A stretch of DNA of 64,000 nucleotides from positions 192,758,001 to 192,822,000 of the forward strand of contig NC_091473.1 of assembly GCF_036971445.1 (NCBI RefSeq), in the 5' to 3' direction. Each line of letters begins with the position of its first letter. Positions within the stretch are counted from its first letter, which is position 1. Of this stretch, positions 6,901 to 54,690 are shown piece after piece. The stretch comes from Narcine bancroftii. Its lineage: Eukaryota. The position numbers and the translations under genes are program-made. The notes under the pieces were generated by a model. That model was given only the letters and a program-made list of their open reading frames with translations. It did no database searches and was not told where the DNA came from.

Positions 6901-8983
6901 ACAAAAAATACGAAACATTACAAAAGTACAAGGTGGAGAAGAACGTAATGAAAATAAAGCAAAAGTATTATGAACTGGGAGAAAAAAACACATAAAATAT
7001 TAGCCTGGCAACTTAAAACAGAACAAGCTAAAAGAACTGTATTGGCATCAAGGAAAAAGGACAAACAAATTACATATAACCCAAAAGAAATTAATGAGAA
7101 TTTTATGAACAATTATACCAAACTGAGAATGAGGGGAAAGATGATAAAATAGAAGAGTTTTTAGCTAAAATTGAACTACCGAAATTGCAAGAAGAGGAAC
7201 AAAATAAACTGATAAAACCATTTGAAATAGAGGAAATACAAGATATATTTAAAAAGTTGCCGAACGATAAAACACCTGGAGAGGATGGATTCCCAATAGA
7301 ATTCTATAAAACATTTAAAGAGTTATTGATTCCTCCTCTCCTGGAAGTGATGAACCATATAGAAGAAACAAAAAACTTCTCAGCAATAATTACAGTAATA
7401 CCAAAGATGGGGATCCATTAACACCAGCATCATGTAGACTGAATTCAGATTATTAGATAATAGCAAAATTATTAGCATACAGATTGGCCAATTGTGTACC
7501 AAAAATAGTAAAACAAGATCAAACTGAATATATTAAGAAAAGACAAACAGCAGATAATGTCTGTAAACTTATCAATCTAATTCATGCAGTTCAAGGAAAC
7601 AAGAAGCCAACAGTGGCTGTTGCTTTAGACGCAAAAAAAGCCTTTGACAGAGTAGAATGGAATTATTTATTTAAAGTATTACAGAAGTTCAATCTACCAG
7701 AAAAATATATTAATTGGATTAAAGCATCATATAATGAACCATTGGCGAAGGTAACAGTAAATGGATATGTATCAAACCAATTTAAATTAAGTAGGTCAAC
7801 TAGACAGGGATGTCCATTATCCCCCTCACTGTTCATTTTAGCAATAGAACCATTGGCAGAACTGATAAGAACAGAAAATAAAATAAAAGGGATAAAAGTA
7901 AAGGAGAAGGAGTATAAAATTAGTTTATATGCAGGTGACATCATAGTATACTTAACAGAACCAGAAATATCAATAAAAGAATTACACAAGAAATTGAAGG
8001 AGTATGGAAAAATATCGGGGTACAAGATCAACGCAAATAAAAGTGAAGTGATGCCAATGAGTAACACAGACTATACAGAATTTAAAAAAGAATCACCATT
8101 TAAATGGCAAACACAAGCAATCCGATACCTAGGTATTAGGTTAGATAATAACTTAAGCCACCTGTACAAACTAAATTATCAGCCACTAATAAAGAAATTG
8201 CAGGAAGACTTAGAACATTCAAAAAAGAATTACCGCTAATGTTGATAGGGAGGGTAAATTGCATTAAAATGAATATCTTCTCAAGGATACAATACTTATT
8301 TCAAACGTTGCCAATTCCCTTGACGGAGAAACTCTTTAATGAACTAAAGAGAATAATAAGGAAATTCTTGTGGAAAGAGGGGAAACCAAGGATAGCGTTA
8401 GATAAATTAGCAGAGAGGTATAATCAAGGTGGTTTGCAGTTACCAATCTTTAAAAATTATTATAGAGCAGCACAATTAAGGTATTTATCAGATTTTTACC
8501 AGACAAGGGAAAAACCAGACTGGACTAAGATAGAACTAGATAAAATAGGGGAGAAGGTACCGGAACATATACTTTATAAGTGGGATGAAAAGCTGGTGCA
8601 ATATAAAAGCTCACCAGTATTGCATCATTTACTTAATATATGGAAGAAGATCCACTTAGAAAGAAAAAAAAATTACCAAATACCAAAATTGTTATTGACA
8701 CAAAACCCACTAATCCCTTTTACAATAGATAACCTTTCCTTTAGAGAATGGGAGAGAAAAGGAATCAAAAGAATAGAAAATTGTTTTTCGGGAAATAATT
8801 TATTAACATTTGAACAGTTGAAGGACAAATATGGAATAACTCATGGTACAATGTTTGCACATCATCAATTAAAACCTTATTTAAAGGATAAATTGGGAAA
8901 CAGACTGAGATTACCAGAAGGAAGCAGCTTTGAATATGTGATTACAGACACAATGATAATTAAAAGATTTATAACCAACATGT

Positions 8984-19095: not shown

Positions 19096-20782
19096 TTTTT
19101 TATATTTTATTTTTTAAAACCATGATACATTCATTCAAAAAATATACAATTAATAGATAACACAATTAAAAAAACATACATGATTCATTTAATACAAACT
19201 AGTCCCTTACAACCCCCCCAACCTCATTACCCACCCACTCAACCCTACCCACCTTTAACCTATCCCCCACAAAAAAGAAAGGAAGAGAAAAGAGATTAAC
19301 TAATAACAAAATTTCTCAGTTAATTATCATGGATTAGAGAAACACCACCACTGGGCGGCTGGGGGTTCAAAAACTCAAACCCATATCATCCAAATACGGG
19401 CTCCAAGTTTTATGATAGAAAAAATAATTATCACGTTTATTCTATGTTATTTTCTCCAACGGAATACAAGACCTCAATTCCATCTCCATCTCTGCATACT
19501 CAAATCAGTCTCATTTTTCCAATTAATTGCTAAACATTTTCTGGCCACAGCTCATGCCAATTTGAAAAATGCAATTTGACATGTATTTAATCTTAATTCT
19601 AAACTCAACCTCTTAATGTTACCCAACAAAAGCACGAAAGGATCTAATGAAAATTTCACTTTCAAAATTACTTCTAAAAAATCCTTGTCTATTCCAGAGG
19701 TTTTACCATTTCACATCACCAAGTAGAATGTAAAAAAAGAACCTACTTCCTTTTGACATCTAAAACACATATCTGAAGAAATTAAATTATATCTCCTTAA
19801 TTTTTCCCCGAGTTAAATATAATTGATGAATAAAATTATAATGAACTAACCGATACCTGACATTTATAATTTTAGTCATACTAAATTCATCTTGGTGAAT
19901 AAGTATTCCTAAATCTTTTTCCCATTTCAACCTAGATTTATACAAATCCAACTTAGACATTTTAATCTGTAATGAATAATACATCTCAGATCTAAATTCC
20001 TTCCCTTACCTCCCTCTGTAAGTAAAATTTCAAACCGATCAATAAGGAAACCATAAAGTATATACAAAATTATCCAATAATAAAGCTTTAATTTGATAAT
20101 AAAAAAAATATTTGAAGGAATATTATATTTCCCTTTCATTCTTTGGAAAGAAATAAAATAACCTGCTTCATAACAATCTTGTACAAATTTAATACCCTTT
20201 TGATCCCATAACTTCAAATTTGATTGTTAAGTGTAAAGGGAAAAAGTGTAAAGGGAAATTTTGATACAAAGAAGTTTTACCCTTGAGTACCTATAACTTC
20301 ATATATTTTATACCATAGTTGCATTAAATGTTTCAAAATGGGTAAGTGATAATTACTCAATAACTTAGAATTCCATCAAAAAGAAACTGATCCATCTTCT
20401 TCTCACCAATTTGAGATCAATCAATATTTGCCCATATCAATGACTTTTCCAAATGAAACAATCTATTAATAAATTTCAACTGTGCCGCATCATAGTAATT
20501 TCATATTTCCAGGTTAATTTTTGTCAAGATATCTTTGCCATCTTATCCTTCCATAAACATTTTCTCACCATGGAGTTCAAATCCTTAAGATATTTTGAGG
20601 AAATCTTACAAGGTATAGATTGAAATAGATACTGAATCCTTGGAAAAATATTCATTTCAATTCAATTTACCCTTCCTATTAATGTAATTGGTAAATCTAT
20701 CCATCAATTCAAGTCATTTTTAATTTTAAAAAGTAACTGTAAATAATTTAATTCATAAAAATGACTATAATTACTGTGTCCC

Positions 20783-21556
20783 TGTCTTGGGTAAACTTAT
20801 ACCTCTCATTTTGTTCATTTTAGATTGGTCACAGTGTTTGAGCTACCGAAAGAAAATAGACACTCACACCGAGAGCAGTTCAGTTTATACAAATGTTTAT
20901 TACTAATTCAAAAGCTGATTTCACACTACAATATGCAAGCCCTTCCCAACTATACTTATCAACGCTTGGACTGGTCCCAACTGCCGAAGCGAGGCAACGA
21001 CTGCACACTTGTAGTAGGTTGTCAGGGCGCTGGTAGCAGCTTCTCCACCTCCCCCGACCGGGACGTTGCTCAGACTCTGGCTGTTCTTCCTTCTTGACAA
21101 GGGGTGTTCCCACCCCTCGGAGAATCTAAACTTCAGCAGCAGGACCACAGGCTTATATACCCCAAAAACAATTAATCATGCGCCTACTCCTTCTAATATT
21201 TGTCAGTCAAAATCAAAACTGAACATTACATTCTACAATTTAGAAGATTAATTATTATGGAACCAGGATGTTATAATTTCCTGGTTTATCTCGTAGATAC
21301 AAAGACTTATTAAAACTTTTCGAGCAAGACAGGTTGTGACCAATTCGTCAATTTCAGAGTGTTGCATTTGACAACTGCTTTCCCTGGGCCTCACAGTGGA
21401 ATTCCATTTCAAAGTGTATCTTCAGATAAGTCCCCATGGCTGAGTTTAATTACATCTGCTAGTTCTGAAAGTAAGGTGACCTGTGTGTGGACCCAGTGTC
21501 GTCAGTTCCACATAAGCAAAAAGCATCTGGGTACATGGTTTTAATCCTCCATTACA
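20783..21556 (-). repeat. 3' LTR
   Basis: Direct repeat of 25608-26381; minus-strand TATATAA near 21155 and AATAAA near 20898. Confidence 0.95.
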
Positions 21557-21592
21557 TTTCACCCCTTGGTCACAATCTGTCATTTGCGAGGC

Positions 21593-22024
21593 CTAACCAG
21601 TATTTGAGTACAGAGGGAGCGAAAAAAGAGAAATCAAAACAACAATTACAAAGATAAGCAATGACGCGAGCAACCAACGGAGGATAGTGTGGCCCACTCC
21701 CTCAAATGTAGCAGTTAGCCATGAGAAAGGATTCCAACCAAGGCTCAAATTATCCTTGTTGGCCACAATACCCAGGTACTGGAGCTCACGAACAGATTTT
21801 GAAACATGCTGAACAATAACATATTTATATAAGCTGCACTTGAGGCTGGTGACCGAGGACTTCCTTGGTGTAATGCATCGGACCGTGTTTCCCACGGGGA
21901 ACTCCCTTGGAACGTCCTCGACATTACAAATCCAATTGCTGGCATCAAAGCAGCTGTTAAGCCAGATCACCAGGAGTGTAAAATGGAGAACCTGGAACAA
22001 AGAAGCCTGACACATGTCACTCAC
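21593..22024 (-). CDS. env: Mini-Env remnant: signal peptide fused to TM anchor (about 140 aa)
   Basis: Lies between pol end and PPT; hydrophobic N-terminus (LFQVLHFTLLVIWLNSC), Trp-rich WNPFSWL and TM ILRWLLASLLIFVIVVLISLF. Confidence 0.65.
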   Translation of the reverse strand: MSDMCQASLFQVLHFTLLVIWLNSCFDASNWICNVEDVPREFPVGNTVRCITPRKSSVTSLKCSLYKYVIVQHVSKSVRELQYLGIVANKDNLSLGWNPFSWLTATFEGVGHTILRWLLASLLIFVIVVLISLFSLPLYSNTG

Positions 22025-24452
22025 GATACCATAAGCGTTCAGTGTTTAAACAGACTAAATCATCCTGTCCCTCAATAGCTACCCACCGAGTGTTACCCTG
22101 GGCAGGTGTCACTATTTCCCCTTTTACAGGAGGGCCACTACCTGGTGGTGCCACCCATACCTTTTGTCCAACATTCTCTAGTTCGGGAATGGGGGGCAAT
22201 GACTGTTATTCCTCTGGAATAGGCTGTAATTCAGGAGCGTGAAGAAGTCGGTGGAAAGGTATACCTCCTTTTAAAGGGCGATGATTCAAATTGTCGACTG
22301 CCTGCTGCAGCACATGGCACCATCCCTTCTGGGTCCCCAGTGATGTTTCCAAACGAATTTGTTCCTTCAGTAAGCCGTTCATTTGTTCAACTAACCCGGC
22401 AGCCTGCGGGTAATAAGGAATATGGTGGACCCATAAAATACCGTTGTCATTTGCCCAATCACAGATTGCTTTCCCGGACAAGTGCGAGCCATTATCAGAG
22501 TGAATCTCCTCTGGAACATCATAACGATAAATCAAATGGTTTAGTCCTTGGATAGTGCTAGCTTGGTCAGCCGTCTTGGTGGGAAAAGTAAAAACCAGGC
22601 CCGAAAAGGTGTCAACCATTACTAGGATGTAATATTTACCCATACAGTCTAGCATGGGGCCTATGTAATCAATTTGCCAGACCGCAGCTGAGTGAGCACC
22701 TCATTTTATTCGGCCATGCGGACCAGGTGGAACGGTATGGAACTTCACAAGCTGACATTCTGGGCATGTACGTACGACCATGCGGACATCATCCTGATGG
22801 ACGGATAAAGCATGTGTACGGGACCACATAGCTGATCCCTTCTCCCCCAAATGACCACTCTGTTCATGTGCCCATCGAGCCAGGGGAACGGTATCAGCAC
22901 AGCTGATAGTGGCAAGCTGATCTGCTACTGCATTACATTGAGCCATGTTAGTCGCCATATTGGTATGGGCATCAACGTGATAAACGGTTATCTCACGATG
23001 GTGGGAAGCATCCCACAACAGCTGCCACAACTCTTTGCCCCATACTGGGCGGTCATGTATCATCCAGTTGTTCTTTTGCAAATCAGGCATCCATACCACA
23101 AGTCCAGTAGCCAAAGCCCAGGAATCAGTAAACAGGCGAAGAGGGTGATCATGGGGATCTAGTGGTAAAGTGACTGCCTTCAACTCAGCATACTGACTGG
23201 AGCCACCATCCCCCTCCTCCGATAAGTGAGTTCCTGACCTGGGATGGTAAGCCACCTGTTCGTGTACGCGGCCCACCCCTTCAGGCCCTCTGGTCGCACG
23301 ACTCTGAATATACCACTTCCATTTAACAATAGAAGACTGCTGAGCCCGCCCGATCTTTAGATTAGCATCATTAGCCAGGACCCAATTCATTATAGGAAGT
23401 GCAGGTCGCAATTGAACATCTGCATCACCTGTCATTCTTTCAGTCTCTAGCAGGGCCCAGTAACAGGCTAGTAACTGTTGTTCAAAAACAGAATAACGAG
23501 TGGCAGCCTCAGGCATGGTACGTGACCAGAATCCCAGTGGGACTCGGCGACCCTCTTGTTTCTGCCAGAGGCTCCAGGAGGCCACATCATCAATATAATG
23601 GTGAATTGAGAGGGAAGGCGATACTGGAAGGTGGGTGAAGGTATACTGGCGCCCCTTCCAGGTAAAGGCGAACTGATCCTGTGAGTCCTCAGCTATAAGA
23701 ATACTGAAGAAGGCGTTAGCGAGATCAATGACAGCATACCATGTTCCTGAGTTCCCAGTAGCAATGTTTTCAATAAGGGTAACTATGTTCGGAACTGCTG
23801 AAGCAAGTGGTGGGGCATGTTTGTTCAAAAAACGATAATCAACTGTCATTCTCCAGGAGCCATCCGGCTTCTGGACTGGCCAAACAGGGCTATTAAAGGG
23901 CGACGTTGCGGGCCTCACTACCCCTTCTTCTTGCAGAGCATCAATGGTGGCAGTAATCTCTTCCTGCCCCCCAGGGAGACGATGTTGTGGAATGCACACT
24001 GGTTTCATGGGGGCTGGCACCATCACAGGATCCCACTTAGCCTGACCCACTACTAGTTTTTTTGTAATAGTTCGAATTCCAAATTCAAATCCCCCTTGGC
24101 TAGTATTAAGGGCCATACCGGCCAACATATTAATACCCAGGATACACTCGTCAGTAGCAGCCACCAGGGCATGTAACCAGACAGGGGAAGGGCTATCACC
24201 CACCATGGCACAGACTTTTATTTCCTTTGCCAGGGTGACCGCTCCTCCCAACCCCTCTATTCGAAAGGCCGGTCCAGTCCAGAGGTCGGGATTACCAGGA
24301 ATCACCGAGTGCTCTGCACCGGTGTCGACCAAAGCCAAGTATTGGCAATCATTACCCCCACCCCAGTGGATTGTTAACGGTATGTAGGGCCGCGGATCCA
24401 CGTGTGTGCGCCGTGTCTCGATGGAGTAGACACGGGAATCCTGCCCACACCT
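22017..24452 (-). pseudogene. pol: ERV pro-pol (PR-RT-RH-IN) with in-frame deletions and two in-frame stops
   Basis: DPRPY..LVDTGA, SPFNSPVWPV.K.DGSWRMTVDYR, YIDD, GFWS, SSQYAEL, FTDSW, HHCC, WQIDYIGP, HSDNG, AGLVE. ORFs 22701-24401, 22206-22655 and 22017-22199 are all in one frame. Confidence 0.92.
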
Positions 24453-25577
24453 TCAGGCTTCAGAAGGGTTCGGGGGCTTCCAGGACCACATGCTATTGTT
24501 ATCTTTAAGAGCCTGTTTAAGCCATTGTTTTACCTCATCATGAGTAACTGGAGCAGGAGAAGCCAGCTCGATAGAAGCAGCAGTGGGAGCAGAAAGCACA
24601 GCTGGGCCAGGAGGACTCAGCAGCTGGGGATGATGTTCCCCTGCTTTTTGCCTAAATCGATCTCCAATGGCAGCCAGCTCTTTTACAGAGAAATCACGGA
24701 TCATTGACTCCTTCCGACCCCTGTTCCCACTTTGGCTCACAGGGTCCTCCACCCAGTCTAGGGGAGGAGGTGGAGGCCATCCAACAGAGGGAGTAGGCCA
24801 TAGAGCATAAGCAGGGGTTTGGGTATTTTCCCCTGGGTCCACATGGGAAATTGGGGTATCTATCCCTTCCATCTCTACCCTTACATCATCCCCCCTTCTG
24901 TCTGTTTGGGAAATCTGCTGCCTTATAGGGCGGGCGTGAACAGCAGATGGAGAGGGTAGTATGTTAGACACATGCTGAGGAGTATCTGCATTATTACCAT
25001 TGTCATTCCAGATATTCCCATCCCAATCCTCAATTACATCAGGATGGTCACCATTCCTTATCATGGCATGAATACGATATGGATCGGGTTCTACTCCATG
25101 CCTTTCCTTATCTGCACAGAGCTGCTGCCGGAGTTTAATATTACGGCAAATCATTTGGACATGCTTATCTTCCCATTCTTTGGCTCTGTCCTGACTGGTG
25201 CGAACAATCTCGCTCATCATAGAACAGCATTGTCGCAGGACTTCTAACTCCTCCTCTAATTGCTTTCTTTTGCACTGAGATTCTACTTCTCTTTGAATTA
25301 ATTCTGCTTCACGCTGAACGGAGTGGCGTAATGCTGTGGCCAGCAACCAAAAACCATTCGTCAGTGTTCCCTTTTTATCAGGAAATTTACTTTCTCGAAG
25401 GAGAGTGGCAACCCGCTCTCCCAGAGGTGCACTTGATGAGTCTAACTTCTCATCCCAACTAATGGGTGGTCCCAACAAAGACAGGGTATTGGCCAAAATG
25501 CCAAACCCATCGTCTTTGGAAGTCCATCCAGGAATCAAGAACTGCTCAGGGCTCACCTCTTTCTTTCGGCGAAACAT
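24453..25577 (-). CDS. gag: ERV Gag (capsid region largely deleted, frame open)
   Basis: ORF starts 10 nt after the PBS (MFRRKKEV...); coiled coil; WDGNIW; ELAAIGDRFRQKAGE (ERV-L-type); same frame as pol. Confidence 0.8.
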   Translation of the reverse strand: MFRRKKEVSPEQFLIPGWTSKDDGFGILANTLSLLGPPISWDEKLDSSSAPLGERVATLLRESKFPDKKGTLTNGFWLLATALRHSVQREAELIQREVESQCKRKQLEEELEVLRQCCSMMSEIVRTSQDRAKEWEDKHVQMICRNIKLRQQLCADKERHGVEPDPYRIHAMIRNGDHPDVIEDWDGNIWNDNGNNADTPQHVSNILPSPSAVHARPIRQQISQTDRRGDDVRVEMEGIDTPISHVDPGENTQTPAYALWPTPSVGWPPPPPLDWVEDPVSQSGNRGRKESMIRDFSVKELAAIGDRFRQKAGEHHPQLLSPPGPAVLSAPTAASIELASPAPVTHDEVKQWLKQALKDNNSMWSWKPPNPSEA

Positions 25578-25587
25578 CTTGAGACCA

Positions 25588-25605
25588 ATCCTGCTCGCAG
25601 CGCCA
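25588..25605 (-). other. Primer-binding site, tRNA-Ser
   Basis: TGGCGCTGCGAGCAGGAT, 2 nt after the 5' LTR, complementary to the 3' end of vertebrate tRNA-Ser (recalled as ...ATCCTGCTCACAGCGCCA; 17/18). Confidence 0.8.
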
Positions 25606-25607
25606 AT

Positions 25608-26381
25608 TGTCTTGGGTAAACTTATACCTCTCATTTTGTTCATTTTAGATTGGTCACAGTGTTTGAGCTACCGAAAGAAAATAGACACTCACACCGAGAG
25701 CAGTTCAGTTTATACAAATGTTTATTACTAATTCAAAAGCTGATTTCACACTACAATATGCAAGCCCTTCCCAACTATACTTATCAACGCTTGGACTGGT
25801 CCCAACTGCCGAAGCGAGGCAACGACTGCACACTTGTAGTAGGTTGTCAGGGCGCTGGTAGCAGCTTCTCCACCTCCCCCGACCGGGACGTTGCTCAGAC
25901 TCTGGCTGTTCTTCCTTCTTGACAAGGGGTGTTCCCACCCCTCGGAGAATCTAAACTTCAGCAGCAGGACCACAGGCTTATATACCCCAAAAACAATTAA
26001 TCATGCGCCTACTCCTTCTAATATTTGTCAGTCAAAATCAAAACTGAACATTACATTCTACAATTTAGAAGATTAATTATTATGGAACCAGGATGTTATA
26101 ATTTCCTGGTTTATCTCGTAGATACAAAGACTTATTAAAACTTCTCGAGCAAGACAGGTTGTGACCAATTCGTCAATTTCAGAGTGTTGCATTTGACAAC
26201 TGCTTTCCCTGGGCCTCACAGTGGAATTCCATTTCAAAGTGTATCTTCAGATAAGTCCCCATGGCTGAGTTTAATTACATCTGCTAGTTCTGAAAGTAAG
26301 GTGACCTGTGTGTGGACCCAGTGTCGTCAGTTCCACATAAGCAAAAAGCATCTGGGTACATGGTTTTAATCCTCCATTACA
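25608..26381 (-). repeat. 5' LTR
   Basis: Direct repeat of 20783-21556. Confidence 0.95.
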
Positions 26382-27224
26382 GTCCTTTAACACCTAAATA
26401 CTTAATTTGATCCAACCATTTAAATTTAACAATATGTTTACAAAGATATTGCCGCTAATGGCATAATATAACTTTTATCGCCAATTGATTTGATAGTCTG
26501 ATATTTCTCCGTACTGTTCCAGTCCGTCATGTAACCGCTTAAAAAAATTGTGAGGTTCTGTTAAGTATATCAAAACATAATCCACAAACCAATTAATTTT
26601 AAATTCATCAAACTTCACTTTAATACCATCTTGCCTCATCATCTGAGCTAAAGGTTCAATAATTAATGCAAAAAGAGCTGGTGACAAAGGGTATCCTTGT
26701 CTAGTTGATCTATTCAACATAAAAGGTAAAGAGAACTGTCCATTTGTCACAACTCTAGCAATATGATTTCTTATATAATGCCTTAATCCAACCAGTAAAT
26801 ATTGGACCAAAGGTAAATTTCTCCAAAACTTTAAATAAAAAAAACTCCACTCAACACTATCAAAGGCCTTCTCTGCATCCAATGAAATAACCATTGGTAG
26901 TTTGGATTCCTCCCAAGAAATATTAATCAAAGAAATCAATTTCACAACATTATCTGCTGAATAATGATTTTAATAAATCCAGCTTGATCCAAATGAATGA
27001 AATCCGGTAAATATAACCTTATAATCAACATTCAACAATGAAATTGGTCTATAAGACCCATCTTTCAACGGATCCCAATCTTTTCTTAAGAATAACTGTT
27101 ATAATAGCTTGAGAAAATGAATCTGGTAATGAGTGAACTTCCATTCCTTGTTTCAATACATTCATTAACAATGGCATTAATAAATCTTAAATACTGGATC
27201 TAATGGACCAAATTCTTTGTGAAA

Positions 27225-27659
27225 TGTTGATTACAAAATTGTAACTAAGGTTAAGCAAATTGATTGGGGAAGAAATACTTACCAGGCTTAATACATTTAG
27301 AACAAGCTGGTTTTATTAAAAATCATTATTCTGCAGATACTATTGCAATATCAATTAGTATGATTCCTATTTCTTGGGAGGAATCCAACTTACTGGTTTT
27401 ATCATTAGATGCCAAAAAGGCATTTGATAGGCTAGAGTGGAGTTTTTTATTTAAAATATTAAAAAGATTTTGCTTTGGATCAATGTTTATTAGTTGGATT
27501 GAATCTTTATATAAAAATGCTTTCTCCAGAGTGGTGATGAATGGCCAAATATTATCATCTATTTTTATTAGAAAAATCTACTAGATAAGGTTGCCCTTTG
27601 ACTCCAGCATTGTTTGCATTAGCTATTGAACCATTGACTCAATTGATAAAACAAGAACC
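27225..27659 (+). mobile_element. L1 RT fragment
   Basis: QAGFIK...LDAKKAFDRLEW...GCPL. Confidence 0.75.
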
Positions 27660-48713: not shown

Positions 48714-51700
48714 TTTTTTTTTAAATTTTTTATTTTTCACACCATAAATCACAATAGCCATGATATACACTTTTTCTTTTTCACACATTTACAGTGACTT
48801 TTTCTCCCCCCCCTCCCTCCTCCCAAGCCACCCCCCAACCCCCCCCATCTCATCCATTTTAGGAATACAATCTAGGTTGCATTAATTCAGTCAGACAATG
48901 TTGTCATTCAACAAAAATACACCAGAAATTCTACAGAGTCCATTCTTTTCTTTCCTTCTCCTTCCATCAACTTAGGTAATGTTTGTCCCCGGTAGGTTTT
49001 CGCTATTGTATTTAATGTAAGGCTCCCATACTTGTTCGAATATTTCAATATTATTTCTTAAACTATATGTTATTTTTTCTAATGGAATACATTTATTCAT
49101 TTCTATATACCATTGTTGTATTTTCAAATTATCTTCCAATTTCCAAGTTGACATAATACATTTTTTTGCTACGGCTAGGGCTATCTTAACAAATCTTTTT
49201 TGTGCATCTTCCAAGTCAATTCCAAAATCTTTATTTTTTATGTTACTTAGGAGAAAGATCTCTGGATTCTTAGGTATATTGTTTTCTGTTATTTTATTTA
49301 ATATCTGATTGAGATCATCCCAAAATTTTTCTACTCTCTCACATGTCCAGATTGCATGAATTGTTGTTCCCCTTTCTTTTTTACATCGAAAACATCTATC
49401 AGATACTGTTGGGTCCCATTTATTTAACTTTTGCGGTGTAATGTATAGTCTGTGTAACCAATTATATTGTATCATACGCAGCCTCGTATTTATTGTATTT
49501 CTCATCGTTCCAGAACATAATTTCTCCCATGTTTCCTTTTTTATCTTTATATTTAAATCTTGTTCCCATTTTTGTTTAGTTTTACCATTTGTTTCCTCAT
49601 TCTCCTTTTCTTGCAGTTTAATATACATATTTGTTATAAATCTTTTGATTAACATTGTATCTGTAATCACATATTCAAGGTTACTTCCCTCTGGTAAACT
49701 CAAATTGCTTCCTAATTTATCTTTCAAGTAGGATCTCAGTTGGTAATATGCCAGCGCTGTATCTCCAGTTATATTGTACTTATCTCTCATTTGTTCAAAG
49801 GATAAGAATCTACTTCCTGAAAAACAATTTTCTATTCTTTTAATCCCTTTTTTTTCCCATTTTCTAAAGGAAAGGTTGTCTATTGTAAAAGGGAGTAGCT
49901 TATTTTGCGTCAATATTAGTTTTGGTATTTGATAATTTGTTTTATTTCTTTCTACATGAATCTTCTTCCATATATTGAGGAGATGGTGTAATACTGGAGA
50001 AGTTCTATGTTGTACCAATTTTTCATCCCATTTATATAATATGTGTTCAGGTATCTTTTCCCCTATTTTATCTAATTCTAGTCTCGTCCAGTCTGGTTTT
50101 TCCCTTGTTTGATAAAAGTCTGATAGGTACCTTAATTGTGTGGCTCTATAATAATTTTTGAAGTTTGGCAATTGTAAGCCTCCTTGTTTATACCATTCTG
50201 TTAATTTATCTAGTGCTATCCTCGGTTTCCCCCCTCTCCATAAAAATCTCCTTATTATTTTCTTTAACTCTTTGAAGAATTTTTCTGTCAGTTGTATTGG
50301 CAATGCCTGAAATAAGTATAGTATCCTTGGAAAAATGTTCATTTTAATACAGTTTATCCTTCCTATCAGTGTTAGTGGTAGCTCTTTCCAATGCTCTAAA
50401 TCGTCCTGTAATTTTTTCATTAGTGGATTGTAATTGAGTTTATATAATTGGCCTAGATTTTTGTTTATTTGCACACCTAGGTATCTTATTGCCTGCATTT
50501 GCCATCTGAATGGGGATTCCTCCTTAAATTTTGAGAAATCCGCGTTATTCATAGGCATTGCTTCACTTTTATTTACGTTTATCTTGTATCCCGACATTTC
50601 TCCATATTCCTTCAATTTCTTATATAGTTCTTTTATTGATAGTTCTGGTTCTGTTAAGTACACTATCACATCATCCGCAAATAGACTGATTTTATATTCC
50701 CTGTCTTTTATTTTTATTCCTTTTATATTATTATCTATTCTTATCGATTCTGCTAGTGGTTCTATAGCTAGCGCAAACAATAATGGTGATAGTGGGCATC
50801 CCTGCCGCGTTGACCTGCTTAAGTTAAATTGCTTTGATACATGTCCATTTACTGTCACTTTCGCTAACGGTCCCTTATATAATGCTTTAATCCAATTAAT
50901 ATACTTCTCCGGTAAACTGAATTTTTGCAATACTTTGAACAAGTAATTCCATTCTACTCTGTCGAAGGCCTTCTCTGCGTCTAAAGCAACTGCTACTGCC
51001 GGTGTTTTATTTCCTTCTACTGCATGAATTAAGTTAATAAATTTACAAATATTGTCTGTTGTGCGTCTTTTTTTGATAAATCCAGTTTGGTCTAAATTTA
51101 CCATTTTCGGTACCTGTTCTGCTAATCTGTTTGCTAATAGTTTAGCTATTATCTTATAATCTGTGTTTAGCAGAGATATTGGTCTATATGACGCTGGTGA
51201 GAGTGGATCTTTCCCTTGTTTGAGTATCACTGTAATTATTGCTGTTTTACATGAATCTGGTAAGTTTTGTGTCTCATCAATCTGGTTGATTACATCCAGG
51301 AGGGGCGGTATTATTAGATCTTTAAATGTTTTGTAGAATTCTATTGGGAGTCCATCCTCTCCTGGTGTCTTATTATTTGGTAATTTTTTTATTATCTCTT
51401 GTATTTCTACTGTTCCAAATGGTTCTGTTAATTTATTTTGTTCCTCTATTTGTAGTTTTGGTAGTTCAATTTTAGTCAAAAATTCATCTATTTTCCCTTC
51501 TTTCCCTTCGTTTTCAGTTCGGTATAATTGTTCATAGAATTCTCTGAAGTTTTCCTTAATTTCTTTTGGATTATATGTAATTTGTTTGTCTTTTTTCCTT
51601 GTTGCTAATACCATTTTCTTAGCTTGCTCTGTCTTAAGCTGCCATGCTAAGATTTTGTGTGTTTTTTCACCTAGTTCATAATATTTCTGTTTTGTCTTCA

Positions 51701-54690
51701 TTATATTCTTCTCCACCTTATATGTTTGTAGTGTTTCATATTTTATTTTTTATCTGCCAATTCTCTTCTTTTAGTTGTATCTTCCTTTATTGCTAATTTT
51801 TTTTCTATGTTTATTATTTCCCTTTCCAACTGCTCTGTTTCCTGATTATAGTCCTTCTTCATCTTGGTTGCATAACTTATTATTTGTCCTCTAATGAATG
51901 CTTTCATTGCATCCCATAGTATAAACTTATCTTCCACTGATTCCGTATTTACTTCAAAGTACATTTTTAATTGTTTTTCAATAAATTCTCTAAAATCCTG
52001 TCTTTTAAGTAGCATGGGGTTTAATCTCCATTTATACATTCTTGGAGGGATGTCCTCTAGCTTTAGTGTCAGTATTAAGGGTGAATGGTCCGATAGCATT
52101 CTCGCTTTATATTCTGTTTTTCTTACTCTATCCTGCATACTAGCTGATAACAAAAATAGGTCTATTCTTGAGTATGTTTTATGTCTAGTCGAGTAGTATG
52201 AGTATTCCTTTTCTTTTGGGTTTTGTTTCCTCCATATGTCCACAAGTTTCATTTCTTGCATTGATTTAATTATAAATTTGGTTACTTTGTTCTTCCTGTT
52301 AATTTTTTTCCCAGTTTTATCCATATTTGGATCCAAATTCAGATTGAAATCCCCTCCTATTAGTATGTTCCCTTGCGTATTAGCTACCTTCAAAAAGATA
52401 TCTTGCATAAACTTTTGATCTTCTTCGTTAGGTGAATATATATTAATTAGATTCCAAAGCTCCGAATATATCTGACATTTTATCATAACATATCTCCTTG
52501 CTGGATCTATTATTTCCTCTTCTATTTTAAATGGCACATTTTTGCTAATTAATATAGCCACTCCTCATGCTTTTGAATTTTACGATGCTGCTGTTACATG
52601 TCCTACCCAATCTCTCTTTAATTTCTTGTGCTCCAATTCAGTTAAGTGTGTTTCTTGGACAAATGCTATATCTATTTTTTCCTTTTTCAGTAAATTTAGT
52701 AGTTTCTTCCTTTTAATTTGGTTATGTATTCCATTAATATTTAAAGTCATATAGTTCAGCGTAGCCATTTTATATTTTGTTTATCTTCTCTTTCCGTTTT
52801 TCCATCATTACCTTTCCTCCTTTTCCATTTCTGTTTTCTTATTTTCAACTCTTTACCAGACAACATTCCTACAACATCCAACATTTTCCTTATTCTCCTA
52901 TTTCTATCTTCTTTATCCCCAATCTCCCCTTCCCCTCCTGAGTTGTCCTTTATCCCTTGTCGGACAACCACATCTCCCCTCTCCATTTGCATTTGCGAAT
53001 CCACTCGCAAGCGTCAACTGATTTTGCAGTGACCGCTCTTTTCCCCCACCCAGCCCCCCCCAGAAAAGATTTCACTTTTCATATGTCACAAAGGTCACTC
53101 TTTTAATTCCCTCCTTATTCTCTCTATTCCATTACCTTCCCTTACTAATTCTTGTCTATACTATCTATGTTTTCCTCTAATTACAGATACTTTCACGTAT
53201 GCCCATTTTCTCTATTCACTCTTATACCTCTTTACCCGCATACATATCAATCGTGGTCATTTTTACCCTCATTACCCGTCTTCATCCCTCAGTCTATTTT
53301 TGTCTTTACCCACATACATATCAATCGTGATCATTTTTACTCTCATTACCCGTCTTCATCCCTCAGTCTATTTTTGTAATTGTTCTGCAAATTTTCGTGC
53401 TTCTTCTGGATCCGAGAACAGTCTGTTTTGTTGTCCTGGAATAAATATTTTCAATACCGCAGGATGCTTCAGTGTAAATTTATATCCTTTCTTCCATAAA
53501 ATCGCTTTTGCTGTATTGAACTCTTTTCTCTTCTTTAGGAGTTCAAAACTTATATCTGGATAAATGAAGATTTTTTGCCCTTTATACTCCAGTGGTTTGT
53601 TGCCCTCTCTTACTTTTTCCATTGTCTTCTCCAGTACCTTTTCTCTTGTAGTATATCTTAGGAATTTTACTACAATAGATCTTGGTTTTTGTTGTGGTTG
53701 TGGTTTAGGGGCCAATGCTCTATGTGCCCTTTCTATTTCCATTTCTTGCTGTAGTTCTGGACATCCTAGGGCCTTAGGGATCCATTCTTTTATAAACTCC
53801 CTCATATTCTTGCCTTCTTCATCTTCCTTAAGGCCCACTATCTTTATGTTATTTCTTCTGTTATAATTTTCCATTATATCTATTTTTTGGGCTAGTAATT
53901 CTTGTGTCTCTTTAGTTTTTTTATTAGATTCCTCCAATTTCTTTTTTAAGTCTTCTACCTCCATTTCTGCTGCTATTGCCCGTTCTTCCATCTTGTCCAT
54001 TTTTTTCCCCATTTCTGTTAAGGTCATATCCATTTTATTTATTTTCTTTTCTGTGTTGTTTATTCTTCTTCTTAAATCATTGAATTCCTGTGTTTGCCAT
54101 TCTTTAAATGACTCCATGTATCCTCTAACAAGAGCAAGTATATCCTTTACCTTGCCTTTCCCTTTATCTATTTCACTGTATTCTTCCTCTTCTTCTTCCT
54201 CTGGGTTGGCCATCTGTTGTTTCTTTGATGTCCTTTCCTCCTCTTCTTTCTTGTTTCCATTGTCTTCTGTGGTCTCTTCTTGCTGCAGGTGTTCTGCAGC
54301 TGTCGTTGCTGGCTGTGGAGATCGACTCCCCAGCTGGTCCCCCCTCCCGTCAGTGTGTTTTTTTTCATGCGCGGTTGCGCACTTTTACTCGGCTCTGTGA
54401 GCCATTGCTGTAGTTCTTTTTCTACCGACCTGAGGTAGTGGGCTCCTCTCTCCACAGCGGGCCTCTTCGGACAGGTAAGGCCTTCACCTTTTTCCTCCAT
54501 TGTCTTCTCTTCCTCTCTTCTTTCCGTTGATTTTGATTTTTCTCCTTTTGTCTCCATCTTCTTTCCACCTTTATACTCACTTTTCTTTAACTTGTATTTC
54601 TGTACCTTTGTATTTTCTCTTGTTTTTCCCAACTTTTCTGGAGAGGGCTGGAGTTCACCGTCCGGCCACTACTCCATCACGTGACTCCTC
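48714..54690 (-). mobile_element. Full-length young L1, nearly intact
   Basis: TSD ggaaaatgttc (48703-48713, 54691-54701). ORF1 ends 53368; ORF2 52768-48972 with a 914-aa open RT-CCHC stretch. Two stops near 52570 and homopolymer frameshifts. Confidence 0.95.

What the first reader, a model, noticed from the sequence alone, without database searches (positions are those of the whole stretch)
21557..25607. Miniaturised ERV in which about five deletions all preserve the reading frame
Seen: the internal region is only 4.05 kb. Relative to known ERV-L-type proteins, blocks are missing at RQKAGEH|HPQ (capsid), FTHLP|VSP (RT QG motif), YIDDV|ASWSLWQ (RT thumb/connection), EQVA|YHP (first RNase H catalytic motif) and inside env. 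No frameshift occurs anywhere; the only other lesions are two point stops in IN. If frame were random, five of five in-frame would occur 1 time in 243. Inference: a non-autonomous lineage under selection to stay translatable (RNA stability, cis-packaging, or a defective-interfering/restriction role), mobilised by a helper virus. Microhomology at repeated dipeptides could partly explain the bias.
Basis: partly seen in the sequence, partly recalled or inferred. Interest (0 to 1): 0.8.

Follow-up and report, generated by a model that had tools for sequence, protein, structure and literature searches.

The report
Shrinking retrovirus parasite keeps reading frame
This is one of several hundred young copies of a crippled retrovirus in a ray genome that lost five blocks one after another without breaking its reading frame, likely because it borrows an intact sister virus's enzymes and only RNA that ribosomes can read through would survive to be copied.

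Summary
Confirmed and extended. The provirus (LTRs 774 bp, one mismatch) lacks 678, 66, 450, 177 and 1089-1092 nt against natural undeleted copies, all multiples of 3, at short direct repeats and not at splice sites. It belongs to a young family (395 exact matches to one junction). Intermediates show five separate steps: env, RT thumb, RNase H, RT palm, mid-gag. Recombinants tie it to a coeval sister family with unbroken genes, the likely helper. Two independent sister pol deletions (846 nt, 117 matches; 1392 nt, 4 copies) are also in frame. Of gag-pol deletions, 6 of 7 multi-copy ones keep frame against 16 of 39 single-copy ones (p=0.037). Microhomology alone gives about 1 in 57, not 1 in 243. 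Amino acids drift neutrally after RT loss. Frame breaks spread among copies rarely upstream of integrase (3 of 34) but freely within it (6 of 16). So selection likely acts on translatability in cis, probably RNA stability, not on protein sequence. Against: one multi-copy integrase frameshift, an out-of-frame sister env deletion, small numbers, post hoc choice. Closest known case: mouse IAP 1Δ1. New variant of a known kind.

The parts
25608..26381 (-). 5' LTR (774 bp); its first ~387 nt are of the young sister family's type, not the old parent family's
25588..25605 (-). primer binding site (tRNA type not tested; by recall serine-like)
   Evidence: sequence directly; 198 exact matches of a 22-mer here
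24453..25577 (-). gag remnant, 374 codons from ATG to the natural TGA
25555..25557 (-). splice donor after gag codon 7, joined to the env acceptor in run contigs
24639..24648 (-). junction D1: 678 nt (226 codons) of mid/C-terminal gag missing; last step of the series; imperfect repeat, 3-5 nt exact
22017..24452 (-). pro-pol remnant in frame with gag: protease, N-half of RT with YIDD, tether, partial RNase H, integrase
23624..23630 (-). junction D2: 66 nt (22 codons) missing from the RT LPQG motif onward; 2 nt exact repeat; fourth step
23581..23595 (-). junction D3: 450 nt (150 codons) of RT thumb/connection missing; 10 nt exact repeat; second step, first loss of RT
23247..23256 (-). junction D4: 177 nt (59 codons) missing, including the first RNase H catalytic motif; 6 nt exact repeat; third step
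22701..22703 (-). stop in integrase, near-private (2 of 85 copies)
22206..22208 (-). stop after the integrase core, shared by 59 of 85 five-deletion copies
21593..21991 (-). env remnant from the splice acceptor: 132 codons, in frame with the 7 gag codons of the first exon
21812..21819 (-). junction D5: 1089-1092 nt of env missing; 5 nt exact repeat; first and oldest step, shared with RT-intact env-less copies
20783..21556 (-). 3' LTR
20778..20782 (.). target-site duplication, left copy (4 of 5 letters match the right copy)
26382..26386 (.). target-site duplication, right copy

Best explanation
The element is a young, several-hundred-copy retroviral parasite with a broken reverse transcriptase that lost five blocks in five separate steps, is likely copied by a co-packaged intact sister virus, and likely kept its gag-pol frame because RNA that stops translation early would be degraded or poorly packaged. 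Shown: sizes, frame, step order, copy numbers, recombinants with the sister family, neutral amino-acid drift, and a 5'-to-3' gradient in tolerance of frame breaks. Inferred: deletions arose by template switching at short repeats during reverse transcription (about 40% land in frame by themselves); each new variant then had to compete for helper particles; variants that put a stop far from the 3' end would lose RNA to nonsense-mediated decay, since ribosomes reading gag and reading through its stop into pol are what would clear the long 3' region; stops near the end (integrase) cost little. The env deletion is probably in frame by chance.
For: Nested series among natural copies: env only (12), +D3 (2 complete, 2 partial), +D4 (4), +D2 (23), all five (85) of 130 classed. 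LTR-pair medians fall in the same order: old family 93.6%, D3 stage 96.6%, five-deletion 99.9%, young intact family 99.7% (the D4 stage, 94.8%, is out of order, n=5). Gag-pol deletions >=30 nt in 221 loci: multi-copy 6 in frame/1 out, single-copy 16 in/23 out, Fisher p=0.037. Independent lineages: 846 nt, 117 exact matches, in frame with only 2-3 nt of repeat; 1392 nt, 4 copies, in frame. In 85 five-deletion copies, frame-breaking changes are shared by >=2 copies in 3 of 34 cases upstream of integrase, 6 of 16 in integrase, against 146 of 481 substitutions (p=0.006 and 0.58). New shared substitutions have dN/dS 0.81, p=0.23; D3-stage vs five-deletion columns 0.77, p=0.38. The gag stop itself is a sense codon in 24 of 85 copies and 8 copies have one unbroken 1186-codon frame. 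Recombinants: sister gag on deleted pol in 8 copies, sister gag-pol on the deleted 3' end, sister PR-RT patch in 4 five-deletion copies. Run contigs carry the junctions and a GT..AG joint. Precedents: IAP 1Δ1 cis effect (PMC6466679, PMC7411935, passages); read-through protecting MLV RNA from decay (PMC4917968, passages).
Against: Four of the seven multi-copy gag-pol deletions are the ones that prompted the finding; the three independent ones give 2 of 3 in frame (p=0.37). A 35-nt out-of-frame deletion at the start of integrase is in 3 copies. A 1-nt pol frameshift at 23200 is shared by 3 copies and one at 24255 by 2 of them. Stops alone give 1 of 12 vs 5 of 10 shared (p=0.056), and 0.12 against substitutions; private 1-nt indels may include assembly errors; frameshift vs small in-frame indels is 2 of 22 vs 3 of 10 (p=0.29). 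D2-D4 arose while the gag stop was intact, so the frame there matters only to read-through ribosomes; read-through was not measured. Nothing here tells RNA decay from a cis-acting fusion protein. Single-copy deletions may be post-insertion DNA events, so they are an imperfect null.
Confidence: 0.6

Rival explanations
1. Chance plus microhomology: template switching favours in-frame repeats in coding sequence, shorter RNA spreads better whatever its frame, and this lineage was picked out because it happened to score five of five.
For: All five junctions sit at repeats. In-frame share of matched repeats is 0.36-0.6 and 16 of 39 single-copy deletions are in frame. The product for five is 0.017, for the four in gag-pol 0.046, within reach of a post hoc pick. 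Out-of-frame changes did spread: env 1127 nt (115 matches), IN 35 nt, IN stop in 59 of 85.
Against: The two largest independent RT-loss founders are also in frame, one with almost no repeat; frame breaks upstream of integrase are under-shared (3 of 34, p=0.006); loss of the gag stop spread to 24 of 85 copies.
Confidence: 0.25
2. A cis-acting fusion protein, as reported for IAP 1Δ1: the deleted Gag or Gag-Pol binds its own RNA or joins helper particles (possibly bringing protease or integrase), so the frame is kept for the product.
For: Protease DTG, integrase HHCC and DDE motifs remain in frame; D3 and the 846-nt deletion both spare gag, protease and integrase; gag has no shared frameshift in 85 copies; literature precedent (PMC6466679 passage).
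Against: No amino-acid constraint after RT loss in any domain; integrase is cut in 59 of 85 copies; a third of gag is gone in the most successful form. Low dN/dS among widely shared variants of older lineages also covers the dead RT piece (0.16), which points to import by recombination.
Confidence: 0.12
3. Host-selected restriction factor or defective-interfering element: the host keeps deleted Gag/Env products because they poison the intact virus.
For: A spliced 139-codon env remnant and gag remnant stay open in most copies (gag open in 72 of 85; env stops in 4 of 85); family RNA is present in four runs.
Against: Private (post-insertion) changes are neutral: dN/dS 1.00 in gag-pol, 1.8 in env; hundreds of dispersed near-identical copies fit selfish spread, not one domesticated locus.
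Confidence: 0.03

Closest known systems
Mouse IAP 1Δ1 (IΔ1) non-autonomous subtype
   Same: In-frame internal deletion giving a gag-pol fusion; needs proteins in trans; outnumbers its helper in new insertions; translation reported to act in cis (PMC6466679 and PMC7411935, passages; the primary paper, Saito 2008, was not held).
   Different: IAP is class II with one 1.9-kb deletion; here a class III-type element took four successive in-frame gag-pol deletions with intermediates preserved, three of them downstream of an intact gag stop, and parallel lineages did the same; amino acids are unconstrained here.
XtERV-S of Xenopus (class III ERV with gamma-type env)
   Same: TGT..ACA LTR ends, 5-bp target duplication, gag and pol in one frame split by TGA, env overlapping the pol end, gamma-type TM, internally deleted copies with a swapped 5' LTR part (PMC8278194, passages).
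   Different: XtERV-S has a dUTPase and its env splice donor lies before the PBS; here no dUTPase hit and the donor lies after gag codon 7; its deleted copies number 19 and are not described as frame-keeping.
Other helper/parasite ERV pairs: ETn/MusD, recKoRV/KoRV-A, bovine ERVK D/C type, HERV-K type 1/2
   Same: Defective form amplified in trans and outnumbering the helper (PMC10924933, passages).
   Different: Those lose or swap their coding core and have no long open frame; this one shrinks by clean in-frame deletion.
Hemitrygon akajei ERV polyprotein (P0002)
   Same: Nearest non-self relative, 57% identity, sister in the RT tree (93/93).
   Different: Carries the blocks missing here; its own family structure was not examined.

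Membership tests
LTR retroelement / endogenous retrovirus | paired LTRs with TG..CA ends, PBS, target-site duplication | tested here: met
   35 of 37 copies with both LTR ends have a perfect 5-bp duplication
LTR retroelement / endogenous retrovirus | gene order gag, PR-RT-RH-IN, env | tested here: met
   Pfam RVP, RVT_1, RNase_H, rve in this order; TLV_coat in an undeleted copy
Class III ERV (ERV-L/ERV-S-like) | RT closer to spumaretroviral RT than to class I/II | tested here: inconclusive
   best PDB hits are foamy-virus Pol (82 bits) ahead of MLV RT (60); tree groups it with amphibian, bird and ray sequences but holds no named class III reference
Class III ERV (ERV-L/ERV-S-like) | 5-bp target duplication, TGT..ACA ends | tested here: met
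   criterion from PMC8278194 passages
Class III ERV (ERV-L/ERV-S-like) | gag without CCHC zinc finger; gag and pol in one frame split by a stop | tested here: met
   no CCHC motif in an unbroken gag; TGA in all undeleted groups
ERV-L proper | env-less, dUTPase in pol, leucine PBS | tested here: not met
   undeleted copies have a 518-codon env with CWVC, RHRR and CX6CC motifs and no dUTPase hit; PBS type not tested
ERV-S (XtERV-S-like) | serine tRNA PBS | not tested
   resemblance to tRNA-Ser is recalled, no call
ERV-S (XtERV-S-like) | gamma-type TM on a class III pol | tested here: met
   TLV_coat hit E 9e-15 and CX6CC
Non-autonomous, trans-mobilised ERV | lacks a working enzyme yet amplified as such | tested here: met
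   RT LPQG region, thumb and first RNase H motif absent; 395 junction matches; mean pairwise difference 1.4% in 49 copies
Non-autonomous, trans-mobilised ERV | coeval helper with signs of co-packaging | tested here: met
   young family with unbroken gag, pol and env in 2 of 7 copies read; LTR medians 99.7 vs 99.9%; recombinants in both directions. Gene conversion not excluded.
IAP 1Δ1-like cis-translation dependence | translation of the deleted frame needed in cis for mobility | not testable with these tools
   only indirect population evidence
Retrotransposed spliced RNA | missing blocks bounded by GT..AG | tested here: not met
   0 of 5 junctions on 3 rulers each

The most novel reading that the evidence does not exclude
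A natural, time-ordered experiment in a cartilaginous fish showing that a parasitic retroviral RNA is selected to stay translatable as such, even in pol behind a leaky gag stop and even after its proteins stop mattering: host nonsense-mediated decay would act as a ratchet that lets only in-frame shrinkage spread, repeatedly and in parallel lineages, and is now favouring loss of the gag stop itself.
Probability: 0.35. Interest if true: 0.75.

Novelty: new variant of a known kind. Interest (0 to 1): 0.55.

Why it matters
Most non-autonomous retroviral elements lose coding capacity; IAP 1Δ1 is the one well-known case where translation in cis matters. Here the constraint can be read from population data: five dated steps with intermediates, two parallel RT-loss lineages, hundreds of copies, a coeval helper, and a positional gradient of tolerated stops. 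If RNA surveillance is the filter, it explains why some dead ERVs keep long open frames without protein-level selection, warns against reading such frames as domestication, and makes the role of gag read-through in protecting ERV RNA testable from allele-resolved RNA data. It also documents an active class III-type ERV system with env in a batoid, for which my searches found no paper.

Tried and rejected
Splicing as source of the deletions: no GT..AG placement at any junction. One multi-deletion event: rejected by the nested intermediates. An apparent shared stop at 22349 was an artefact of counting bases singly; codon-level counts show two sense codons. Loose clustering of small indels over-merged events and was replaced by exact left-aligned calls. 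A 6626-nt skip seen in run contigs is one tiny genomic copy (1 of 4 matches), not a lineage. In one search three single-copy deletions of unsure size were dropped, and one counted as out of frame (L077, 715) is probably a duplication artefact; without it the count is 16 of 38. RNA: no run is on record as RNA; four guessed-RNA runs of one study were laid as contigs, with no silent control, so depth, strand and source locus are unknown; only D2 and D3 reach 31 letters on both sides, D1, D4 and D5 have 27, 24 and 30. Earlier-findings look-ups returned nothing. The RT tree had no named class III reference. Literature searches for the same phenomenon in other ERVs gave only IAP 1Δ1 (listings, plus the passages cited); subscription papers and supplements were not seen.
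Full report
Observation. The window holds a provirus on the minus strand: LTRs at 25608-26381 and 20783-21556, 774 bp with one mismatch, around 4051 nt of internal sequence; the 5-bp flanks match in 4 of 5 letters. One frame runs from the PBS through gag (ATG 25577, stop 24455) into pro-pol, with stops at 22703, 22208 and 22019; env lies in the next frame. Pfam finds protease, a cut RT, tether, RNase H and integrase. The nearest database protein, 97% identical and bearing the same pol junctions, is labelled Narcine bancroftii, and its longest contig equals the length of contig C8 here, so the host is very likely that electric ray; the nearest undeleted relative is from Hemitrygon akajei, 57%.

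Deletion sizes. A protein search with the RT thumb of the Hemitrygon protein returned 150 scored places; 20 were read in full. They form an older family A (93-95% mutual identity) and a young family B (98-100%), in which 2 of 7 copies read have unbroken gag, pol and env. Against these natural copies the window lacks 678 nt (D1, gag), 66 (D2, RT palm), 450 (D3, thumb/connection), 177 (D4, RNase H start) and 1089-1092 (D5, env), all 3n on unbroken rulers. Longest exact repeats at the junctions are 3-5, 2, 10, 6 and 5-7 nt; none can be read as GT..AG. D2 starts at the LPQG motif, D4 removes the first RNase H motif: the enzyme cannot work (established RT anatomy).

Copy number and age. Exact junction matches: D2 395, D4 226, D5 483; reversed controls 0. 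These are lower bounds. Of 72 D2 places taken from the list on two contigs, 49 carry all five deletions. Their mean pairwise difference is 1.4%, the LTR-pair median 99.9% against 99.7% for family B and 93.6% for A; 35 of 37 have a perfect 5-bp target duplication.

Order of events. Among 130 loci classed: none deleted 7, D5 only 12, D5+D3 2 (plus 2 partial), +D4 4, +D2 23, all five 85, 13 others cut short or unreadable at a junction; one search added further intermediates. So the five losses are separate events in the order env, thumb, RNase H, palm, mid-gag. The sample was chosen by junction, so these are not frequencies. From the D3 stage on, the first ~387 nt of the LTR are of B type.

Helper. 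The five-deletion form is mostly A-derived with B-like patches at the gag end and 3' end. Eight copies carry B gag on the deleted pol, one read copy carries B gag-pol on the deleted 3' end, and four five-deletion copies carry 50-62 B-diagnostic letters in PR-RT. Co-packaging with B is the simplest reading (inference); gene conversion is not excluded.

Is the frame bias more than chance? In natural coding copies, pairs of positions with matching repeats are in frame in 0.36-0.6 of cases; the product for the five junctions is 0.017 and for the four in gag-pol 0.046. Sister lineages give an outside test. An 846-nt pol deletion has 117 exact matches and is in frame on unbroken rulers with only 2-3 nt of repeat; a 1392-nt one is in 4 copies and in frame; a 35-nt one at the start of integrase is in 3 copies and out of frame. 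A second env deletion (1127-1130 nt on the two B rulers, 3n on 2 of 5 rulers; 115 matches) is probably out of frame. Over 221 loci, gag-pol deletions of 30 nt or more are in frame in 6 of 7 multi-copy and 16 of 39 single-copy cases (p=0.037; three of unsure size dropped). The three independent ones alone give 2 of 3 (p=0.37), so the evidence is moderate.

What is selected? In 85 five-deletion copies, private changes are neutral (dN/dS 1.00) and new shared ones nearly so (0.81, p=0.23); env remnant 1.4-1.8. Column comparisons give 0.23 for A vs B, 0.35 for A vs the D3 stage (which includes time before RT loss) and 0.77 (p=0.38) from the D3 stage to five deletions; one intermediate step, D4 to D2 stage, gave 0.46 (p=0.02). 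Frame breaks tell a different story: shared in 1 of 14 cases in gag, 2 of 20 in pol before integrase, 6 of 16 in integrase, against 146 of 481 substitutions (upstream vs substitutions p=0.006; upstream vs integrase p=0.022; stops only p=0.056). The stop at 22208 is in 59 of 85 copies; the gag stop is a sense codon in 24 of 85; all four combinations occur, which shows recombination among copies; 8 copies have one unbroken 1186-codon frame. Against: a clade of three copies spread with a pol frameshift at 23200.

Expression. Four runs of one study, guessed to be RNA, hold the stretch. Their contigs show a GT..AG joint from gag codon 7 to the env acceptor at 21991, which would give a 139-codon env remnant, and joints at all five deletions when laid on an undeleted copy (D2 in 4 runs, D3 in 3, D4 and D5 in 2, D1 in 1; only D2 and D3 with 31 or more letters on both sides). 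This shows that the family is spliced and that deleted forms are present; it does not give level, strand or locus.

Mechanism. Shown: a dead-RT lineage amplifying beside an intact sister, shrinking by steps, with frame but not amino acids constrained, and with tolerance of stops rising towards the 3' end. Inferred: template switching makes the deletions; translation in cis filters them. For MLV, read-through of the gag stop protects an RNA with a ~6-kb effective 3' UTR from nonsense-mediated decay (PMC4917968, passages); the same logic would explain why D2-D4, which arose behind an intact gag stop, had to keep frame, why late stops are free, and why loss of the gag stop spreads. A cis-acting fusion protein as in IAP 1Δ1 is the main mechanistic rival; chance with microhomology is the main null.

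Comparison and novelty. It works like IAP 1Δ1 (PMC6466679, PMC7411935, passages; primary paper not held) but is not an IAP. Its parent resembles XtERV-S in layout (PMC8278194, passages): class III-type pol, TGA between gag and pol, gamma-type env, 5-bp duplication; it fails ERV-L proper (env present, no dUTPase hit). Searches (listings) showed no description of this family or of serial frame-keeping deletions; subscription papers were not searched. Verdict: real, new variant of a known kind, interest 0.55.

Noticed in passing
window 20000-20782 and 26382-27200: The provirus sits inside a decayed LINE ORF2 fragment on the minus strand (RVT_1 hit at 26478-26969).
   Followed up: partly
window 26629-27656: Two diverged LINE fragments lie head to head and give 71-82% inverted repeats.
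   Followed up: no
window 431-57000: The rest of the window is dense in LINE remnants (endonuclease and RT hits at 7457, 9304, 11443, 30038, 33707, 48975, 51746, 55994); 48972-51749 is a 925-codon open RT frame.
   Followed up: no
window 22347-22349: Five-deletion copies split 47/38 between two codons that differ at two adjacent letters, with no intermediate among 85 copies.
   Followed up: partly
L070:6448-7040: A ~590-nt insertion in env of an old copy has run depth about a thousand times that of the ERV; probably a high-copy SINE; ARAGORN found no tRNA.
   Followed up: partly
L184, L185, L186, L189, L198: Short tandem or inverted units of ~175-186 nt made of the last ~100 nt of the LTR plus the PBS and first ~85 nt of internal sequence, at several unrelated loci; possibly captured by another mobile element.
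   Followed up: no
L070:5051-6283 (about window 23240 to 21991): A second GT..AG joint from inside RNase H to the env acceptor in one run.
   Followed up: no
L250:1265-1749: A single tiny copy with ~485 nt between its LTRs whose junction appears in contigs of three runs.
   Followed up: yes
L164, L193, L208, L212, L226-L245: The 846-nt lineage occurs with both env deletions (1089 and 1127 nt), so it recombined with at least two env-less sublineages.
   Followed up: partly
L063, L066, L134, L217: Some young copies have LTRs with an internal ~150-200 nt duplication.
   Followed up: no
L156: A single copy with a 2403-nt in-frame gag-pol fusion deletion, the closest structural match to IAP 1Δ1, that did not spread in the sample.
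   Followed up: no
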